Shown one piece after another: positions 11,478 through 15,980 of a DNA stretch of 64,000 bases. Within the stretch, counting starts at the first letter, position 1. Each line of letters opens with the position of its first letter. Under the pieces are notes generated by a model. That model searched no databases, was not told the DNA's origin, and saw only the letters and a program-made list of their open reading frames with translations. This DNA is from an uncultured beta proteobacterium (GTDB taxonomy: Bacteria; Pseudomonadota; Gammaproteobacteria; Burkholderiales; Burkholderiaceae), in assembly GCA_903846025.1 (NCBI GenBank), contig CAIMZP010000059.1:15916-79915 (forward strand), given 5' to 3'. Position numbers and translations under genes: made by a program.

Positions 11478-11918
11478 ATGGCCAATTGCATACTCTGTGA
11501 AGAAGAAGTCAAACCCCCTGAGGGGCAGTTGATTTGGCGTGGAGATGACTGCCGAGTCATTCTTGTTGATGACCAAGATTTGCCTGGTTTTTGCAGAATC
11601 ATTTGGAATCGTCACGTAGCTGAAATGACTGATCTTGGTTATAGTGAGCGTGATCACCTCATGAACTTGGTCTTTGTTGTCGAAGAGGTTATCCGTCGTG
11701 TCATGCAGGCAGATAAGATCAATATCGCCGCCTTGGGCAATATGGTTAGCCATCTGCACTGGCATGTCATTCCTAGATATCAAGATGATGCTTTCTTTCC
11801 AGGGTCGGTTTGGTCTGCGAGAACGCAAGAAACGCCGACCGCCTTGATCATTGCTCGCAAAGAAAAAGCCAAAGAATTGCCTGCCGCTATTAAAGCTGCA
11901 ATCACTGCACTTTCCTGA
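11478..11918 (+). CDS. HIT family hydrolase
   Basis: N-terminal CILC and NMVSHLHWHVIPR histidine triad. Confidence 0.9.
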   Translation: MANCILCEEEVKPPEGQLIWRGDDCRVILVDDQDLPGFCRIIWNRHVAEMTDLGYSERDHLMNLVFVVEEVIRRVMQADKINIAALGNMVSHLHWHVIPRYQDDAFFPGSVWSARTQETPTALIIARKEKAKELPAAIKAAITALS

Positions 11919-12107
11919 GCATCTCTATCAAGTTAGGTTTGGTACCTGCTTTCAATTTTGATTTCCACTGCTCAATACACCAACCATAATGGGCGCAGCT
12001 TCTGGTTTATATTAAACCTTGGTATATTCTTTCAAAAGACCTTGGAGCTGCTTTAGCCTTTTACTAAAACTATTGCCCTAGAGTTAAACCATAAGAGGGG
12101 GCGGAAA

Positions 12108-12533
12108 ATGAAAATTAAGCTACTAATTACTGCTTTAAGCTTTATTCCGGCGATAGCGTTGGCGCAAGCGGGTTCAGATATGAAAGACGCTGGGCATGCA
12201 CCAACTGCGGTCTCTACAGTGGCACCAATGGGGGCTGAGACAACCACCCATCCTCTTAGTTCCACGCTCACAAGAACTGCCAATGGCATGGCGCTTGGCC
12301 CTGAACGTGCAATCATGGGCGGTCCCCAAGTCGTTGTTTACGATGGCCGCTCTGGACAGTTGGTTCAAGCACTAGCGCCGATAATTCCTTTACCTAAAAT
12401 TGCTGATCGATTGCCTACTGTTAGCTCTCTTGTAAAACCCCCACCTCCAGCAACAACATTAGAGGTTGCCCCGCCACCCGAAACCGTACCTCCCCCTGCC
12501 ATCCTATACAAATATGAAGAGAAAATTCATTAA
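12108..12533 (+). CDS. Hypothetical exported Pro/Thr-rich protein
   Basis: SD GAGGGG, signal peptide ending ALA-Q, Pro-rich C-terminal half. Confidence 0.65.
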   Translation: MKIKLLITALSFIPAIALAQAGSDMKDAGHAPTAVSTVAPMGAETTTHPLSSTLTRTANGMALGPERAIMGGPQVVVYDGRSGQLVQALAPIIPLPKIADRLPTVSSLVKPPPPATTLEVAPPPETVPPPAILYKYEEKIH

Positions 12534-12551
12534 CCGTAACATCCAGGCCCA

Positions 12552-13088
12552 ATGAAAATAAAATTAGTATTACTATTTTTTGGACTCATGCCTATGTTGG
12601 CTTTGGGTGAACAAGGGTCAAATTTTTATAGTGGTCAAGATCTATACGGTCGGACCAATACATTTCGCGATCCAATAACTACTTCAGTAGCGCCAAATAA
12701 GCAGCCTCCATCATTGCAGTCCACAGTTGGATCGTCTTCTGCATCAGGAGGGAATGGTGGTTTGATATTTGGTAATGGAGGCGCTGAAAGTGGTGGAGGG
12801 GCAGCGCAGCCAACAATGATCCCGATTGGTGTTGAGACAAATGCAAAAACTTCTGGCGCTCCAGAAGCAAGCCCCCCGACTCAATCATTAGATCTCACCC
12901 CGAGGGTGCCACAGGAGGTCAATGAGGCAGTAATTTCCCCCATAGCAGCGGAGAACCCCCAATCTGGATTATTGGTTACTAATGGGGCAAAGAATGATTC
13001 CAATCACAAGGCTATAAATAACAATAATGTATTCCAGAATGTACGTCGTAACGTCGATGTTCCGTGGCAAGAGATCCCCTCACAATGA
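12552..13088 (+). CDS. Hypothetical exported low-complexity (G/S/P/N-rich) protein
   Basis: Signal peptide ending ALG-E; its stop overlaps the next start (ATGA). Confidence 0.65.
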   Translation: MKIKLVLLFFGLMPMLALGEQGSNFYSGQDLYGRTNTFRDPITTSVAPNKQPPSLQSTVGSSSASGGNGGLIFGNGGAESGGGAAQPTMIPIGVETNAKTSGAPEASPPTQSLDLTPRVPQEVNEAVISPIAAENPQSGLLVTNGAKNDSNHKAINNNNVFQNVRRNVDVPWQEIPSQ

Positions 13089-14311
13089 ATTACATTAAAT
13101 TCATAGCTTTAGCAGTCTGTCTTGCAAGCTCAGTGCCGAGCCTTTCTTTTGCCCAAACACCAACATCGAGTCTTCGAGAGTACGCGCCTATTTCTCTGAT
13201 GCAATATCTCGAAGTGGTTAAAGGGAATAACGCCATCATTGGCAATAAGAGATTGGGGAAAGAAACCGCTGCTGCCATCAAAGAATCGCTATCCCTTTAC
13301 CAATTTAGACCGAGCGTGAGTTATACGAAGGGAACTTATTATCAACAGGTTCCATACGCCCCCTACACAACTCCTACATCGAATACCTATGGTCTTAATT
13401 TTAATGTTGAGGGCTGGGGTAAGCGTGCTGCTCGTGCAGAGTACGGTGATGCAGAGATTAGTAGGAGTAGCATTGATTATCAAGCTACTGAGGCGGATGT
13501 TCAAACAGCTGCAACTTTAGGCTTTATCGATACGTTAAGAAATCGGCTGCTATTTAATTCCTATTCTGAGGCAGCTAAAAAGATTGGCGCATTGCCAAAG
13601 ACTGCGCAAACCATTGATTCGGATCGCTTCTTAATATATTACGAAAATGCATCTGCAAGGGACCTTCAGTTCACGTCGCTTAGTCTGCTCAACTACTCGG
13701 GTGGCGTATTGAAAAATCTTCCACTTCCCACTGGCAATCTAAACATTTCTCCCCAGCAGTTTGACCCAGATAAATTGGTCGAACAAGCTATGAATAACCG
13801 CACTGATATTTTAGCTTTGCGAGCGGCTATTAACTCTTCAGAAAAGAATGTCAGCATGACAAAGGAGAATCGGAGTTGGGATGTTCAGCCTTATGTTTCT
13901 TACACAACAACACCTCAGTACCAATCCAGTGGGTACACTTATACGCCGCAAAATGGATTTTCTGCGGGTATCTTAATACCAATCCCAGTGAACAACTATT
14001 TACAAAATGCTGATATTGTTCAAGCCGCTAACCAAAAACTCGGCTTTGAAATGCAATTGACAGATTTAAAGGCTCAAGTAGAGGTGCAGGTCATCCAATC
14101 GCTGTTGCAGTATGAGGCCGCTAAAACAATTTTGAGTCAAGCAAGGGATGCTTTAAGTAGCATCTCTAAAACTGCCAATCAAAATACTCCTAAGGACATA
14201 ATGGGTCTACGTGACAAAGAGGGCGCTCTCATTGATGCTCAGACTAACCATGTAAAGGCCCTGGTCAATGTATACCGACAGAGCGGTAACTACAGCACCC
14301 CACAAATATGA
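13085..14311 (+). CDS. TolC/outer-membrane efflux family protein, atypical
   Basis: Signal peptide and two-fold internal repeat of helix-beta-beta-helix (RPSVSY...NVEGWGKRAAR; NRTDILALRAAI...DVQPYVSY...IPIPV). ATG at 13085 overlaps the upstream TGA. Confidence 0.75.
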   Translation: MNYIKFIALAVCLASSVPSLSFAQTPTSSLREYAPISLMQYLEVVKGNNAIIGNKRLGKETAAAIKESLSLYQFRPSVSYTKGTYYQQVPYAPYTTPTSNTYGLNFNVEGWGKRAARAEYGDAEISRSSIDYQATEADVQTAATLGFIDTLRNRLLFNSYSEAAKKIGALPKTAQTIDSDRFLIYYENASARDLQFTSLSLLNYSGGVLKNLPLPTGNLNISPQQFDPDKLVEQAMNNRTDILALRAAINSSEKNVSMTKENRSWDVQPYVSYTTTPQYQSSGYTYTPQNGFSAGILIPIPVNNYLQNADIVQAANQKLGFEMQLTDLKAQVEVQVIQSLLQYEAAKTILSQARDALSSISKTANQNTPKDIMGLRDKEGALIDAQTNHVKALVNVYRQSGNYSTPQI

Positions 14312-14817
14312 AGAGGTTGGTACTGCTGCTCTTATTCTGCAGTATCGGTGTACTGGCTGCGCCACCAATTGTAGGGCCGCGCGGCCTAACTCCTGGGGAG
14401 GCTATCGCACAGCGTCAGGGCGCACTCTTTGTTGATGCGCGCCAAGGTATCTCTCAAAATACTCTCGGATCAAGGTTGGACGAGTTCTCATTGTTAAACC
14501 CGGGTTCACTGCAGTCAAGGTTTTTATTTAATAGCACTGTGCTTGCTGCTAACCAAAGTTCACCACAGATTGGCTATCTTTCTAGCAATAATTTAAATGC
14601 TGCCTATAAAAAATTTCTGGCAACTCAGCATGAATTTCTGATTGCAGAGCAATCAAAACCATTTGCATCTACTATTGCAAAAAGTCAAGTGCAAGGGATG
14701 GTGTTTATAAAAGCCACTCCTAGTGGCAATCAAGTGGTGGGACCAGCAACAGACCTAATTTATCGAAGTACCATTTCTTTGCCGAATTCTAAATCAGTAG
14801 CAAATGATCCTAATTAA
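14308..14817 (+). CDS. Hypothetical exported protein
   Basis: Signal peptide MKRLVLLLLFCSIGVLA-A; ATGA overlap with the TolC-like gene. Confidence 0.65.
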   Translation: MKRLVLLLLFCSIGVLAAPPIVGPRGLTPGEAIAQRQGALFVDARQGISQNTLGSRLDEFSLLNPGSLQSRFLFNSTVLAANQSSPQIGYLSSNNLNAAYKKFLATQHEFLIAEQSKPFASTIAKSQVQGMVFIKATPSGNQVVGPATDLIYRSTISLPNSKSVANDPN

Positions 14818-14836
14818 AGCAGTGCTGGATTGGGTG

Positions 14837-14863
14837 GAAGCCCTGCTGTAATTGCAGGGCTTC
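14837..14863. terminator. Hairpin between convergent operons (likely terminator)
   Basis: GAAGCCCTGC-TGTAATT-GCAGGGCTTC perfect 10-bp stem. Confidence 0.55.
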
Positions 14864-14905
14864 TGAGATATTAAATGACGATTAAAAAGGGGTAGTTTTT
14901 AGGGT

Positions 14906-15337
14906 TTAGCCCAACCTCTTCAGGGCCTCAAGATATTTTTCGGGGCTTAGTTGTTCGCCTTCGCGCTGCGCTTCCCACATAGCTCGGCCTAGGCACTCCA
15001 TCATGAGGTGATGAGCTTCATGTTCAGAGGCTAATTTCTTAGTCAGTTTCTCGGCAATCTCTTTGATACCAGTCGGTTGATTGATAGAGATCTGTTCGCT
15101 AATGGATAAGTGCATTGAGAGATGCAAGAAAGGGTTAGTTTCACCGCGTTCTGGTGCGTAGTCTTGCTCTAATGCACCCTCAGGATCCATTAATTGGGAA
15201 TGATATTCGGGGTGTTGCGCCATCCAGTCGCCAGCTAGTATTTCCATTGGAGTGAGAATATGCTTCTCAGTTTTTTTCTTCCAGGTATCGCAGAAAAAGC
15301 GACGCACTTCTTCACGGGTTGGATTAAATATCGCCAC
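14906..15337 (-). CDS. DUF1841 family protein
   Basis: AIFNPTREEVRRFF, HPEYH, TNPFLHLSMHLSISEQISINQP and HHLMMECL. GTG start at 15337 is preferred to the track start at 15517, which lies deep inside nth. Confidence 0.8.
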   Translation of the reverse strand: MAIFNPTREEVRRFFCDTWKKKTEKHILTPMEILAGDWMAQHPEYHSQLMDPEGALEQDYAPERGETNPFLHLSMHLSISEQISINQPTGIKEIAEKLTKKLASEHEAHHLMMECLGRAMWEAQREGEQLSPEKYLEALKRLG

Positions 15338-15980
15338 GAACCTTGCCTTTGCTAGTTTTTTGTTTAAAGCTACAGAGTGGCTCAACAATGCATTGAGCGC
15401 ACTCAGGATTGCGCGCCTTACAGGTATATCTACCATGCAGAATAAGCCAGTGATGAGCATCTTGTAAAAATTCTTTGGGAACGCGTTTAAGCAATTTCTC
15501 CTCAACCTCGACAACATCCTTTCCAGATGCCAGACCAGTTCGGTTGGATACTCGAAAGATGTGGGTGTCTACTGCAATGGTTGCTTGACCAAAAGCGGTA
15601 TTTAAAATCACGTTGGCAGTTTTTCTACCAACTCCTGGCAAGGACTCCAGGCCTTCACGATGTTGCGGGACATTACCGCCATGCTTATCAATGAGTAGGC
15701 GACACGTCTCTTGAATGTGACGACCCTTTGAATTGAATAATCCAATATGCTGAATATAGGGCCTCACCCCTTCTTCACCCAGATTTAGTAGTGCTTGTGG
15801 CGTGTTGGCGATCTTAAACAGCTCACGGGTGCCTTTATTTACGGAGACATCCGTAGCTTGCGCTGATAGCAATACGGCAATCAATAGCTCAAATGGTGAG
15901 CTGTACTCCAGTTCAGTTTCTGGATTAGGGTTGTTTTCTTTGAGTAACTCAAAGAAAGCTTGACGCTTTTCTAAGTTCAT
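15324..15980 (-). CDS. nth: Endonuclease III
   Basis: LLSAQATD, HhH motif LPGVGRKTANV, 4Fe-4S motif CKARNPECAQCIVEPLC. Confidence 0.97.
   Translation of the reverse strand: MNLEKRQAFFELLKENNPNPETELEYSSPFELLIAVLLSAQATDVSVNKGTRELFKIANTPQALLNLGEEGVRPYIQHIGLFNSKGRHIQETCRLLIDKHGGNVPQHREGLESLPGVGRKTANVILNTAFGQATIAVDTHIFRVSNRTGLASGKDVVEVEEKLLKRVPKEFLQDAHHWLILHGRYTCKARNPECAQCIVEPLCSFKQKTSKGKVRGDI

What the first reader, a model, noticed from the sequence alone, without database searches (positions are those of the whole stretch)
12108..14817. Four-gene all-exported operon built around an orphan TolC-like channel (best candidate undescribed system)
Seen: four co-oriented genes, each with a Sec signal peptide. 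Two junctions are ATGA overlaps (13085-13088, 14308-14311), one gap is 18 bp, and a strong hairpin closes the unit. The operon encodes no MFP adaptor, ABC/RND transporter or enzyme. The two upstream proteins are low-complexity and probably disordered (Pro/Thr-rich; Gly/Ser/Asn-rich). Established: TolC-family channels normally work in tripartite pumps, while Sec-dependent substrates plus a dedicated outer-membrane pore is the logic of curli (CsgG) and Fap (FapF) export. Inference: a Sec-then-pore export system for small surface or matrix proteins, or a stand-alone channel with periplasmic gating partners.
Basis: partly seen in the sequence, partly recalled or inferred. Interest (0 to 1): 0.7.

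Follow-up and report, generated by a model that had tools for sequence, protein, structure and literature searches.

The report
Orphan TolC-like channel with disordered partners
A freshwater Polynucleobacter carries an accessory four-gene cassette in which a very divergent TolC-type outer-membrane channel is always paired with a floppy, exported partner protein and never with a pump, which points to an undescribed envelope or export module whose function is still untested.

Summary
Four co-oriented genes (12108-14817) have signal-peptide-like N-termini, two ATGA overlaps, an 18-bp gap and a closing 11-bp hairpin. Only O3 matches a known family.

O3 is a real but extreme TolC-family protein. 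Its AlphaFold model has pLDDT 88 and matches TolC and OprM at TM 0.6-0.66. The family profile finds no solved structure by sequence, and only 265 proteins among 1.84 billion.

The family occurs in 30 of 241 Polynucleobacter species genomes and one other Burkholderiales genus. In all 16 genomes checked, the nearest membrane-fusion-protein gene lies at least 28 kb away.

A Sec-exported, low-complexity partner follows every such gene where downstream sequence exists, often overlapping it. This O4 family has no confident predicted fold but carries two short conserved motifs.

O1 and O2 belong to a leader-defined family of hypervariable exported proteins, present in 0-7 copies per locus. Metatranscriptome contigs span the O1-O2 and O2-O3 junctions.

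The cassette sits in a hypervariable hot spot.

Export itself remains an inference. My best reading (about 0.4) is a pump-independent channel-plus-docking-partner module that handles disordered exported proteins.

The parts
11919..14905 (.). Accessory insert between the conserved HIT-family gene (11478-11918) and the conserved 203-aa gene (14906-15517, minus strand). This is a hypervariable hot spot.
   Evidence: The backbone ICL-HIT-[gap]-p203-nth is conserved across the genus. The gap is 11 bp in two species (L063, L065). Other species carry unrelated cargo there. Another species (L029) carries a different TolC-like cassette at this spot, inverted. In lake metagenomes the operon's contig depth is only 2-12% of the flank depth.
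11962..11990 (+). Sigma-70-like promoter candidate (TTTCCA-17-CATAAT)
   Evidence: Consensus scan, 9 of 12 matches. The count is no better than in shuffled sequence, so this is weak evidence.
12108..12533 (+). O1: Sec-exported Pro/Ala/Thr-rich protein of 141 aa, a member of the leader-defined small-protein family
   Evidence: ORF. No family match. Its leader MKIKLLITALSFIPAIALAQA matches small proteins at orthologous loci in other species (tblastn E 3e-5; 13 of 21 identical by my own count). No other N-terminus in the own genome exceeds 10 of 21. An RNA contig covers 12158-12310.
12552..13088 (+). O2: Sec-exported Gly/Ser/Asn-rich protein of 178 aa with a GGNGGLIFGNGG motif; same leader family
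   Evidence: ORF. Composition. The same Gly-Asn motif (GATGGNGGNGGLMIGNGGNGG) occurs in several paralogues downstream of the P. asymbioticus channel gene. RNA contigs span 12458-12719 and 12831-13081.
13085..14311 (+). O3: divergent, compact TolC-family outer-membrane channel of 408 aa
   Evidence: Pfam OEP 54 bits. AlphaFold pLDDT 87.9 with a TolC topology. Foldseek matches TolC, ST50 and OprM at E 5e-16, TM 0.6-0.66, 12-14% identity. No PDB match by profile. The long helices are 56 and 59 residues, against 67 in OprM (PMC8277102).
14308..14817 (+). O4: Sec-exported partner of 169 aa, overlapping the channel gene; mostly without a confident fold, with two short conserved motifs (NPGSLQ..F.N at about 64-75; KSQVQGMVFIKATP at about 125-138)
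   Evidence: Conserved position and motifs in every clade. AlphaFold pLDDT 60.8, pTM 0.27. 26 homologous clusters, all from freshwater or Polynucleobacter sources where a source name is given, and none with an assigned function.
14836..14864 (.). Hairpin with an 11-bp stem and 7-nt loop between the convergent O4 and 203-aa genes
   Evidence: RNAfold of 14818-14905 gives -23.6 kcal/mol. No U tract on either strand. Not called by the terminator scan.

Best explanation
The cassette is a self-contained envelope module that works without a tripartite pump. It has three parts.

1. O3 is a TolC-fold channel in the outer membrane, presumably a trimer. Its periplasmic tunnel is about 12-16 A shorter than in TolC, and its tips are poorly conserved.
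2. O4 is an obligatory partner, often translationally coupled to O3. The Sec system exports it to the periplasm. It stays largely unfolded and docks on the channel through two short linear motifs: N-P-x-S-(L/F)...hydrophobic...(N/R), and hydrophobic-hydrophobic-x-(P/T)-S-P near the C-terminus. There it acts as adaptor, gate or plug.
3. O1 and O2 are members of a family with a conserved leader and a hypervariable, cysteine-free, low-complexity mature part. They are the likely clients. After Sec export they would thread unfolded through the channel and be released or displayed on the cell surface.

What is shown: the fold, the lack of a nearby adaptor gene, the conserved pairing, the motifs, the leader family, the accessory hot-spot location and transcription.

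What is inferred: docking of O4 on O3, passage of O1 and O2 through O3, and surface exposure.
For: Fold and divergence:
- O3 has a TolC fold but is an outlier.
- The family profile finds only 265 proteins at E<=1e-3 among 1.84 billion representatives.

Independence from pumps:
- The own genome already has 7 canonical two-repeat OEP genes, 3 of them beside adaptor genes.
- No adaptor gene lies within 28 kb of the channel gene in 16 of 16 genomes.
- No transporter appears in any inspected neighbourhood.
- The periplasmic tips, where pump adaptors dock in canonical channels, are the least conserved parts (0.44 and 0.53). The EGWGKR junction (0.89) and helix H8 (0.76-0.83) are the most conserved.

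Partner:
- It follows the channel gene in every clade, including a distant AMIN-fused clade. The junction is a 4-bp overlap (ATGA in the window) in most subfamily A loci and in the AMIN-fused locus, and a 4-42 bp gap in subfamily B.
- The C-terminal motif occurs in 23 of 32 partners, against 1.8% of long ORFs in the own genome.
- The partner evolves much faster than the channel: 37-46% against 69-76% identity.
- It has no confident fold.

Leader family:
- Copy number varies from 0 to 7 per locus.
- Leader similarity is well above the genome background.
- In the window the leader-family genes come first in the operon and dominate the RNA contigs.

Location: the cassette is accessory and sits in a hot spot. 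In my judgement this fits surface-exposed products under diversifying selection.

Precedent: Sec-exported proteins leaving the cell through a TolC homologue are known from Aat/CexE and from heat-stable enterotoxin via MacAB-TolC (PMC7943197).
Against: - No experiment or co-fold shows that O4 binds O3, or that O1 and O2 leave the periplasm.
- Known passage of periplasmic proteins through TolC homologues needs an energised inner-membrane partner (PMC7943197). None is evident here.
- Subfamily B loci have the channel and partner but no leader-family genes. The putative clients are therefore not part of the conserved core.
- Translational coupling suggests a stoichiometric subunit, not bulk cargo.
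- The P. asymbioticus partner has a hydrophobic stretch after motif 2. That would fit an inner-membrane tether rather than a soluble gate.
- The nearest outgroup proteins are annotated as CzcC-type metal-efflux channels.
- RNA evidence comes from assembled metatranscriptome contigs at low depth, and DNA carry-over cannot be excluded.
Confidence: 0.4

Rival explanations
1. The module is a stand-alone gated diffusion channel. O3 would be a pump-independent duct for small solutes, in uptake or release. O4 would be its periplasmic plug or gate. O1 and O2 would be unrelated periplasmic or outer-membrane-associated proteins that merely travel in the same island.
For: The conserved core is only the channel plus partner. 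Subfamily B has no leader-family genes. The entrance-proximal helix H8 is highly conserved. The partner carries short docking-type motifs and has no confident fold.
Against: Leader-family genes recur beside the channel in many independent subfamily A loci. In the window they are co-transcribed with it. There is no precedent that I know of for a TolC-family protein acting as a general porin.
Confidence: 0.2
2. O3 is an ordinary outer-membrane factor for a tripartite pump encoded elsewhere, for example a metal-efflux (Czc-like) or ABC system. The small proteins would be periplasmic accessories.
For: The nearest outgroup proteins are annotated as cobalt-zinc-cadmium efflux outer-membrane proteins. 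There is a weak NCBIfam hit to the metal exporter subunit IhpA. At least one adaptor gene in the own genome (contig C142) has no adjacent OEP gene. E. coli tolC itself is unlinked to its pumps (my own knowledge).
Against: The family is in only 12% of Polynucleobacter species. Adaptor-gene counts in carrier genomes look ordinary, at 2-7. Seven canonical OEP genes are already present. The tips are the least conserved region. The tunnel is shorter than normal. The exported partner is strictly linked to the channel, which no known pump requires.
Confidence: 0.15
3. The module has a structural role in the envelope. The TolC-like trimer and its disordered partner would tether or space the outer membrane and the peptidoglycan. 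The low-complexity proteins would form a periplasmic matrix rather than being exported.
For: A related clade fuses a peptidoglycan-associated AMIN domain to the N-terminus of the channel. Pro-rich segments occur in O1 and its paralogues. One long partner has a possible membrane anchor.
Against: The cassette is accessory, patchy and located in a hot spot, which is unusual for core envelope architecture. One species carries a broken channel gene. AMIN domains also occur on true export channels such as PilQ secretins (my own knowledge).
Confidence: 0.1

Closest known systems
TolC / outer-membrane factor family (E. coli TolC 1EK9, OprM, CusC; nearest by sequence: CzcC-type metal-efflux channels)
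   Same: The fold is the same: an internal duplication, four beta-strands and long alpha-hairpins per protomer. Pfam OEP matches above its cut-off, and Foldseek gives TM 0.6-0.66. O3 has a Sec signal peptide and no conserved lipobox cysteine, as in TolC.
   Different: Identity to solved structures is 12-14%, with no PDB hit by profile. Only the second repeat is detected strongly. The long helices are 56 and 59 residues against 67 (PMC8277102). The tips are poorly conserved. There is no linked adaptor or transporter. An exported disordered partner is obligatory.
Aat system of enteroaggregative and enterotoxigenic E. coli (AatA with Aap/CexE; PMC7943197)
   Same: A small Sec-exported protein leaves the periplasm through a TolC homologue and coats the cell surface.
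   Different: Aat needs AatB (periplasmic adaptor), AatPC (MacB/LolCD-like ABC transporter) and AatD (acyltransferase). None of these is encoded at or near the locus. No N-terminal glycine rule is conserved among the small proteins.
Curli (CsgG/CsgE/CsgF with CsgA/B) and Fap (FapF) export
   Same: The logic matches what is proposed here: unfolded Sec substrates, a dedicated outer-membrane pore, a small periplasmic accessory, and no inner-membrane energiser.
   Different: There is no homology. The pore here is TolC-fold, not CsgG or FapF. O1 and O2 gave no Pfam match of any kind. Amyloid formation was not tested.
LapA retained in its TolC-like pore LapE (bioRxiv 10.1101/198937)
   Same: The shared idea is a protein held in a TolC-like pore by a short retention element while the rest is displayed outside. 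This is one possible role for the O4 motifs.
   Different: LapA is a giant adhesin exported by a type I system in one step from the cytoplasm, with an ABC transporter and an adaptor. Here the proteins are small and Sec-dependent, and no type I secretion genes are present.
TolC-YbjP complex (PDB 9v52, 9tg4, listed)
   Same: It is a precedent for a small exported accessory protein that binds a TolC-family channel directly.
   Different: YbjP is a lipoprotein of a working AcrAB-TolC pump. O4 has no conserved lipobox and no confident fold.

Membership tests
TolC / OMF (Pfam OEP, PF02321) | Sequence match to the OEP repeat above the curated cut-off | tested here: met
   54.1 bits against a cut-off of 22. 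Two stretches, the best at residues 229-390. The score is much weaker than for the genome's 7 canonical OEP genes.
TolC / OMF (Pfam OEP, PF02321) | TolC protomer fold: duplicated unit of two beta-strands, one long helix and two stacked shorter helices, plus an equatorial domain | tested here: met
   AlphaFold model pLDDT 87.9 with strands at 77-82, 100-105, 267-276 and 289-297, and helices at 113-168, 174-205, 305-363 and 369-400. Foldseek top hits are all TolC, OprM, CusC or VceC.
TolC / OMF (Pfam OEP, PF02321) | Works with a periplasmic adaptor (MFP) and an inner-membrane transporter | tested here: not met
   This was tested by gene context only. No adaptor or transporter appears in any neighbourhood. 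The nearest HlyD_D23 gene is at least 28 kb away in 16 of 16 genomes. A partner encoded elsewhere cannot be excluded.
TolC / OMF (Pfam OEP, PF02321) | Conserved periplasmic tip and gate elements used for adaptor docking | tested here: inconclusive
   The tip loops are the least conserved regions of the family (0.44 and 0.53). The H8 segment MxxRDxEGxLxDxxxNH just above tip 2 is nearly invariant. No trimer model was made.
TolC / OMF (Pfam OEP, PF02321) | Homotrimeric channel in the outer membrane | not testable with these tools
   Only a monomer could be predicted.
Type I secretion system | ABC transporter plus MFP at the locus; substrates lack Sec signals and carry a C-terminal secretion signal or RTX repeats | tested here: not met
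   No ABC or MFP domains. O1, O2 and O4 have N-terminal signal-peptide features.
Aat-type lipoprotein secretion system | AatP/AatC (MacB/LolCD-like), AatB adaptor and AatD acyltransferase together with a TolC-like AatA | tested here: not met
   None of these is encoded in the operon or in related loci. System definition from PMC7943197.
Curli / Fap functional-amyloid export | CsgG- or FapF-type pore and repeat-bearing amyloid subunits | tested here: not met
   No Pfam or NCBIfam match of any kind for O1, O2 or O4. The pore is TolC-fold. Amyloid propensity was not tested.
Chaperone-usher pili | Usher and periplasmic chaperone domains, and pilin-fold subunits | tested here: not met
   No such Pfam domains. 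Only the gene order (subunits, then channel, then a minor protein) is reminiscent.

The most novel reading that the evidence does not exclude
This would be a previously unrecognised two-step protein export or surface-display pathway. Sec-delivered, intrinsically disordered low-complexity proteins would cross the outer membrane through a pump-independent TolC-fold channel. The channel would be opened or occupied by a disordered partner through short linear motifs. The result would be a hypervariable polypeptide coat on planktonic freshwater bacteria, plausibly under phage or grazer selection.
Probability: 0.3. Interest if true: 0.85.

Novelty: new variant of a known kind. Interest (0 to 1): 0.62.

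Why it matters
TolC-family proteins are textbook exit ducts that work only when an adaptor and an energised inner-membrane transporter open them. This family breaks that pattern. It is never linked to such genes, it has a shortened tunnel with variable tips, and it is strictly paired with an exported, disordered, motif-bearing protein.

If the pairing is functional, there are two possibilities:
- a new way of gating a TolC channel, by a short peptide motif;
- a new energy-independent export or display route for unfolded proteins.

Either would extend the repertoire of Gram-negative secretion. It would also give a small, tractable two-gene system for study.

The cassette also matters for ecology. 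Polynucleobacter is among the most abundant freshwater bacteria. The module is accessory, lies in a hot spot, and carries fast-evolving low-complexity exported proteins. That profile fits strain-level cell-surface diversity shaped by phages and grazers.

Tried and rejected
Searches that found nothing:
- Pfam, NCBIfam, PADLOC and PHROGs gave no family for O1, O2 or O4.
- A PDB sequence search with the family profile gave zero hits.
- The first genome-contig scan, with the single protein, found nothing. The profile scan worked.
- Literature searches for Polynucleobacter plus TolC, and for Sec-dependent TolC-like export, found no description of this module.
- Earlier scan notes gave only analogies, plus one note on the same gene.

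Analyses that were uninformative:
- The AlphaFold model of O4 was of low confidence, so no fold search was attempted.
- A charge-hydropathy (Uversky) estimate was uninformative for these low-charge polar proteins.
- Population variants from metagenome contigs (12 differences in 3.9 kb) were spread evenly and showed no hot region.

Ideas rejected:
- Phage or defence origin: no matches.
- A link to a giant adhesin or type I system: a 3948-aa gene lies near the channel in only one locus (L009).
- A lasso-peptide-like link: the 189-aa and 375-aa genes lie upstream only in P. arcticus, and the Asn_synthase hit is weak.
- A lipoprotein channel: the Cys in the O3 leader is not conserved.

Full report
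**1. What is in the window**

ORF listing confirms four co-oriented genes on the + strand:
- O1 12108-12533 (141 aa)
- O2 12552-13088 (178 aa)
- O3 13085-14311 (408 aa, from the ATG that overlaps the O2 stop)
- O4 14308-14817 (169 aa)

Both ATGA overlaps, the 18-bp O1-O2 gap and a GAGGGGG ribosome-binding site before O1 can be read directly from the sequence. A hairpin with an 11-bp stem and a 7-nt loop lies at 14836-14864, between O4 and the convergent 203-aa gene. It has no U tract and was not called by the consensus terminator scan.

All four N-termini have the charge, hydrophobic core and small residues at -3 and -1 expected of signal-peptidase-I substrates. This rests on my reading of the sequence, because no predictor was available.

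Mature O1 is Pro/Ala/Thr-rich, O2 is Gly/Ser/Asn-rich, and O4 is Ser/Ala/Leu/Gln-rich. None has a cysteine. Their fraction of G, S, T, N, Q, P and A is in the top 0.2-2% of the organism's long ORFs.

Only O3 matches any family (Pfam OEP, 2.3e-14). Pfam, NCBIfam, PADLOC and PHROGs are otherwise silent.

Assembled metatranscriptome contigs from two lake studies cover O1, the O1-O2 junction, O2 and the O2-O3 junction. This argues for transcription as one unit, with the caveats of low depth and possible DNA carry-over.

**2. The organism and the locus**

Named homologues are all Polynucleobacter. The genome is a 1.97-Mb assembly in 162 contigs.

The flanking backbone, isocitrate lyase-HIT-[gap]-203-aa protein-endonuclease III, is conserved across the genus, but the gap is not:
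- It is 11 bp in two species.
- It holds unrelated cargo (binding proteins, CoA-transferase, permeases, a methyltransferase) in others.
- It holds this 3-kb cassette in the window.
- Another species carries a different TolC-like cassette at the same spot in the opposite orientation (L029).

In lake metagenomes the contig depth over the cassette is roughly 2-12% of the depth over the conserved flanks. The cassette is therefore accessory cargo of a hot spot.

**3. The channel**

An AlphaFold model built on 68 family members is confident (pLDDT 87.9). It has the TolC protomer topology. Foldseek returns only TolC-family structures at the top: TolC, ST50, OprM, CusC and VceC, with E down to 5e-16, TM 0.6-0.66 and 12-14% identity.

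The family is nevertheless an outlier:
- Its profile finds no solved structure by sequence.
- It finds only 265 proteins at E<=1e-3, and 21 at E<=1e-30, among 1.84 billion representatives.
- The protein does not detect the canonical channels of 16 other Burkholderiales genomes at E<=1e-3, apart from one marginal hit at 1.2e-4.
- The nearest outgroup proteins are annotated as CzcC-type metal-efflux channels.

The long helices are 56 and 59 residues, and the stacked pairs are 20+32 and 22+32. In OprM the figures are 67 and 23+36 (PMC8277102). The predicted tunnel is therefore about 12-16 A shorter.

Within the family the two periplasmic tip loops are the least conserved regions (majority fractions 0.44 and 0.53). 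The most conserved are the EGWGKR junction under the barrel (0.89), upper H7 (0.83) and H8 (0.76-0.83). H8 includes the nearly invariant segment M..RD.EG.L.D...NH just above tip 2. This agrees in part with another first-stage note on the same gene.

**4. Distribution and context**

The family is present in 30 of 241 Polynucleobacter species genomes. Among 401 Burkholderiales genomes from 167 genera, it occurs in only one further genus.

It has two main clades in Polynucleobacter:
- Subfamily A (45% identity or more to O3, about 10 genomes) sits at variable positions.
- Subfamily B (28-38% identity to O3, about 20 genomes) sits at a fixed position: a DUF4118 gene on the opposite strand, then an alpha/beta-hydrolase gene, the channel gene, an exported low-complexity protein gene and a tRNA gene. 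The window's own genome has a copy on another contig.

The own genome also has seven canonical two-repeat OEP genes, three of them next to adaptor genes.

None of the inspected neighbourhoods contains an adaptor or an ABC, RND or MFS transporter. In 16 of 16 genomes the nearest HlyD-type adaptor gene lies 28-670 kb from the channel gene.

**5. The partner (O4 family)**

In 38 non-redundant loci, an exported low-complexity ORF follows the channel gene wherever downstream sequence exists. It overlaps the channel gene by 4 bp in most subfamily A loci and lies 4-42 bp downstream in subfamily B.

Alignment shows almost no conservation except two short motifs:
- N-P-G-S-x-Q..hydrophobic..N
- K-S-x-x-Q-G-hydrophobic-x-F-hydrophobic, followed by (P/T)-S-P

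Subfamily B partners, and the partners of a distant clade whose channel carries an N-terminal AMIN domain, end in the same kind of motif. Examples are GNYVNTSPT, SFINPSPF, VQLVRPSPL, VLVSPSPT and LLAPSPT. The AMIN-clade partners also keep a motif-1-like NPxS(F/L)...M.R.

A simple pattern for the C-terminal motif hits 23 of 32 partners, against 1.8% of long ORFs in the own genome.

The partner evolves far faster than the channel: 37-46% against 69-76% identity for the same species pairs. AlphaFold gives no confident fold for it (pLDDT 60.8, pTM 0.27). Its best-supported element is a helix over motif 1.

In one species the partner is extended to 471 aa, with a hydrophobic stretch after motif 2.

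Only 26 homologous clusters exist in 5.8 billion clusters. None has an assigned function, and every source name given is freshwater or Polynucleobacter.

I read O4 as a conserved binding partner built from short linear motifs. I do not read it as bulk cargo.

**6. The small upstream proteins (O1 and O2)**

Their mature parts have no detectable homologues. Their leaders are a different matter.

The leader consensus is MK(I/F/T)K(L/S)L(I/L)..L.(F/L)(I/V)P....AQ. It recurs on small, low-complexity exported proteins beside subfamily A channel genes in other species, in 0 to 7 copies, upstream or downstream. tblastn picks up the O1 leader at an orthologous locus (E 3e-5). That is 13 of 21 identical positions by my own count. 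No other N-terminus among about 40,000 candidate starts in the own genome exceeds 10 of 21.

The O2 motif GGNGGLIFGNGG matches GATGGNGGNGGLMIGNGGNGG in several P. asymbioticus paralogues.

A conserved leader with a hypervariable, cysteine-free, low-complexity mature part fits secreted or surface products under diversifying selection. This is an inference.

**7. Interpretation**

I consider the following firmly supported (about 0.75): the conserved unit is a pump-independent pair of a TolC-fold channel and a motif-bearing disordered partner, and subfamily A cassettes add leader-family proteins to it.

How it works is inferred. My preferred model (0.4 overall) runs as follows:
- Sec exports all components.
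- O3 forms the outer-membrane duct.
- O4 docks at or in the periplasmic entrance through its motifs, as adaptor, gate or retention element.
- O1/O2-type proteins pass through unfolded and are released or displayed.

The logic resembles curli and Fap export, and the Sec-then-TolC-homologue route of Aat/CexE (PMC7943197). It differs from them in having no homologous parts and no inner-membrane energiser.

The rivals are:
- a gated solute channel in which O1 and O2 are bystanders (0.2);
- an ordinary channel for a pump encoded elsewhere, given the CzcC-like ancestry (0.15);
- a structural tether between outer membrane and cell wall, hinted at by the AMIN fusion and the Pro-rich segments (0.1).

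**8. Novelty and verdict**

I found no paper or curated family describing this module. The channel belongs to a known superfamily, so I class the finding as a new variant of a known kind. There is a real chance (about 0.3) that it is a new export or display route.

Interest is 0.62.

Noticed in passing
window 11919-14905 and loci L057-L067: The intergenic space between the HIT-family gene and the 203-aa gene is a hypervariable hot spot in Polynucleobacter. It is empty (11 bp) in two species and filled with unrelated cargo in others: TctC-type and other binding proteins, CoA-transferase subunits, an EamA permease, a TRAP component and a methyltransferase.
   Followed up: partly
L082 6001-8846 (metagenome scaffold; protein P0315/P0151): A 598-aa relative of the channel carries an N-terminal AMIN domain (Pfam E 8e-7) and a Ser-rich linker. 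Two exported low-complexity proteins follow it, ending in VLVSPSPTKPTL and LLAPSPTR. This is the same partner motif as in Polynucleobacter.
   Followed up: partly
own genome contig C112 (L007 43-3064): A second, paralogous cassette (34% identity to O3) lies in the same genome: a DUF4118 membrane protein on the opposite strand, then an alpha/beta hydrolase, a TolC-like protein and a Pro-rich exported protein ending SFINPPPVNN, with a tRNA-like stretch just downstream. This arrangement is fixed in about 20 Polynucleobacter species. The role of the cytoplasmic-looking hydrolase is unexplained.
   Followed up: partly
L010 600-4932 and 8638-10556 (P. arcticus CP028940): Upstream of the channel module lie a histidine kinase, a GerE-type response regulator, a 189-aa protein and a 375-aa protein with an SGGLDS PP-loop (weak Asn_synthase hit). 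Downstream, an rve-type insertion sequence is followed by a partial duplicate of the 375-aa gene.
   Followed up: no
L015 / L038 (G133:C1:21172-22346): In one species the subfamily A channel gene is broken by three TAA stops, while the O4-like gene and a 356-aa exported protein downstream remain open. This looks like cassette decay.
   Followed up: no
L008 7224-8639 (P. asymbioticus CP061297): The partner is extended to 471 aa. A hydrophobic segment of about 35 residues (about 167-205) follows the conserved motif, and further hydrophobic stretches follow. It may be a membrane-anchored version of the partner. Six or more leader-family paralogues follow it.
   Followed up: partly
window 14906-15980, minus strand: The listed 203-aa ORF (14906-15517) overlaps the endonuclease III ORF (15324-15980) by about 190 nt on the same strand. 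Orthologues are 176-184 aa, so the true start of the 203-aa gene is probably further downstream.
   Followed up: no
L009 9720-13278 (Polynucleobacter sp. MWH-Creno-3A4): A gene for a 3948-aa protein with a signal-like N-terminus starts 2.5 kb downstream of the channel module. This was seen in this one locus only.
   Followed up: no
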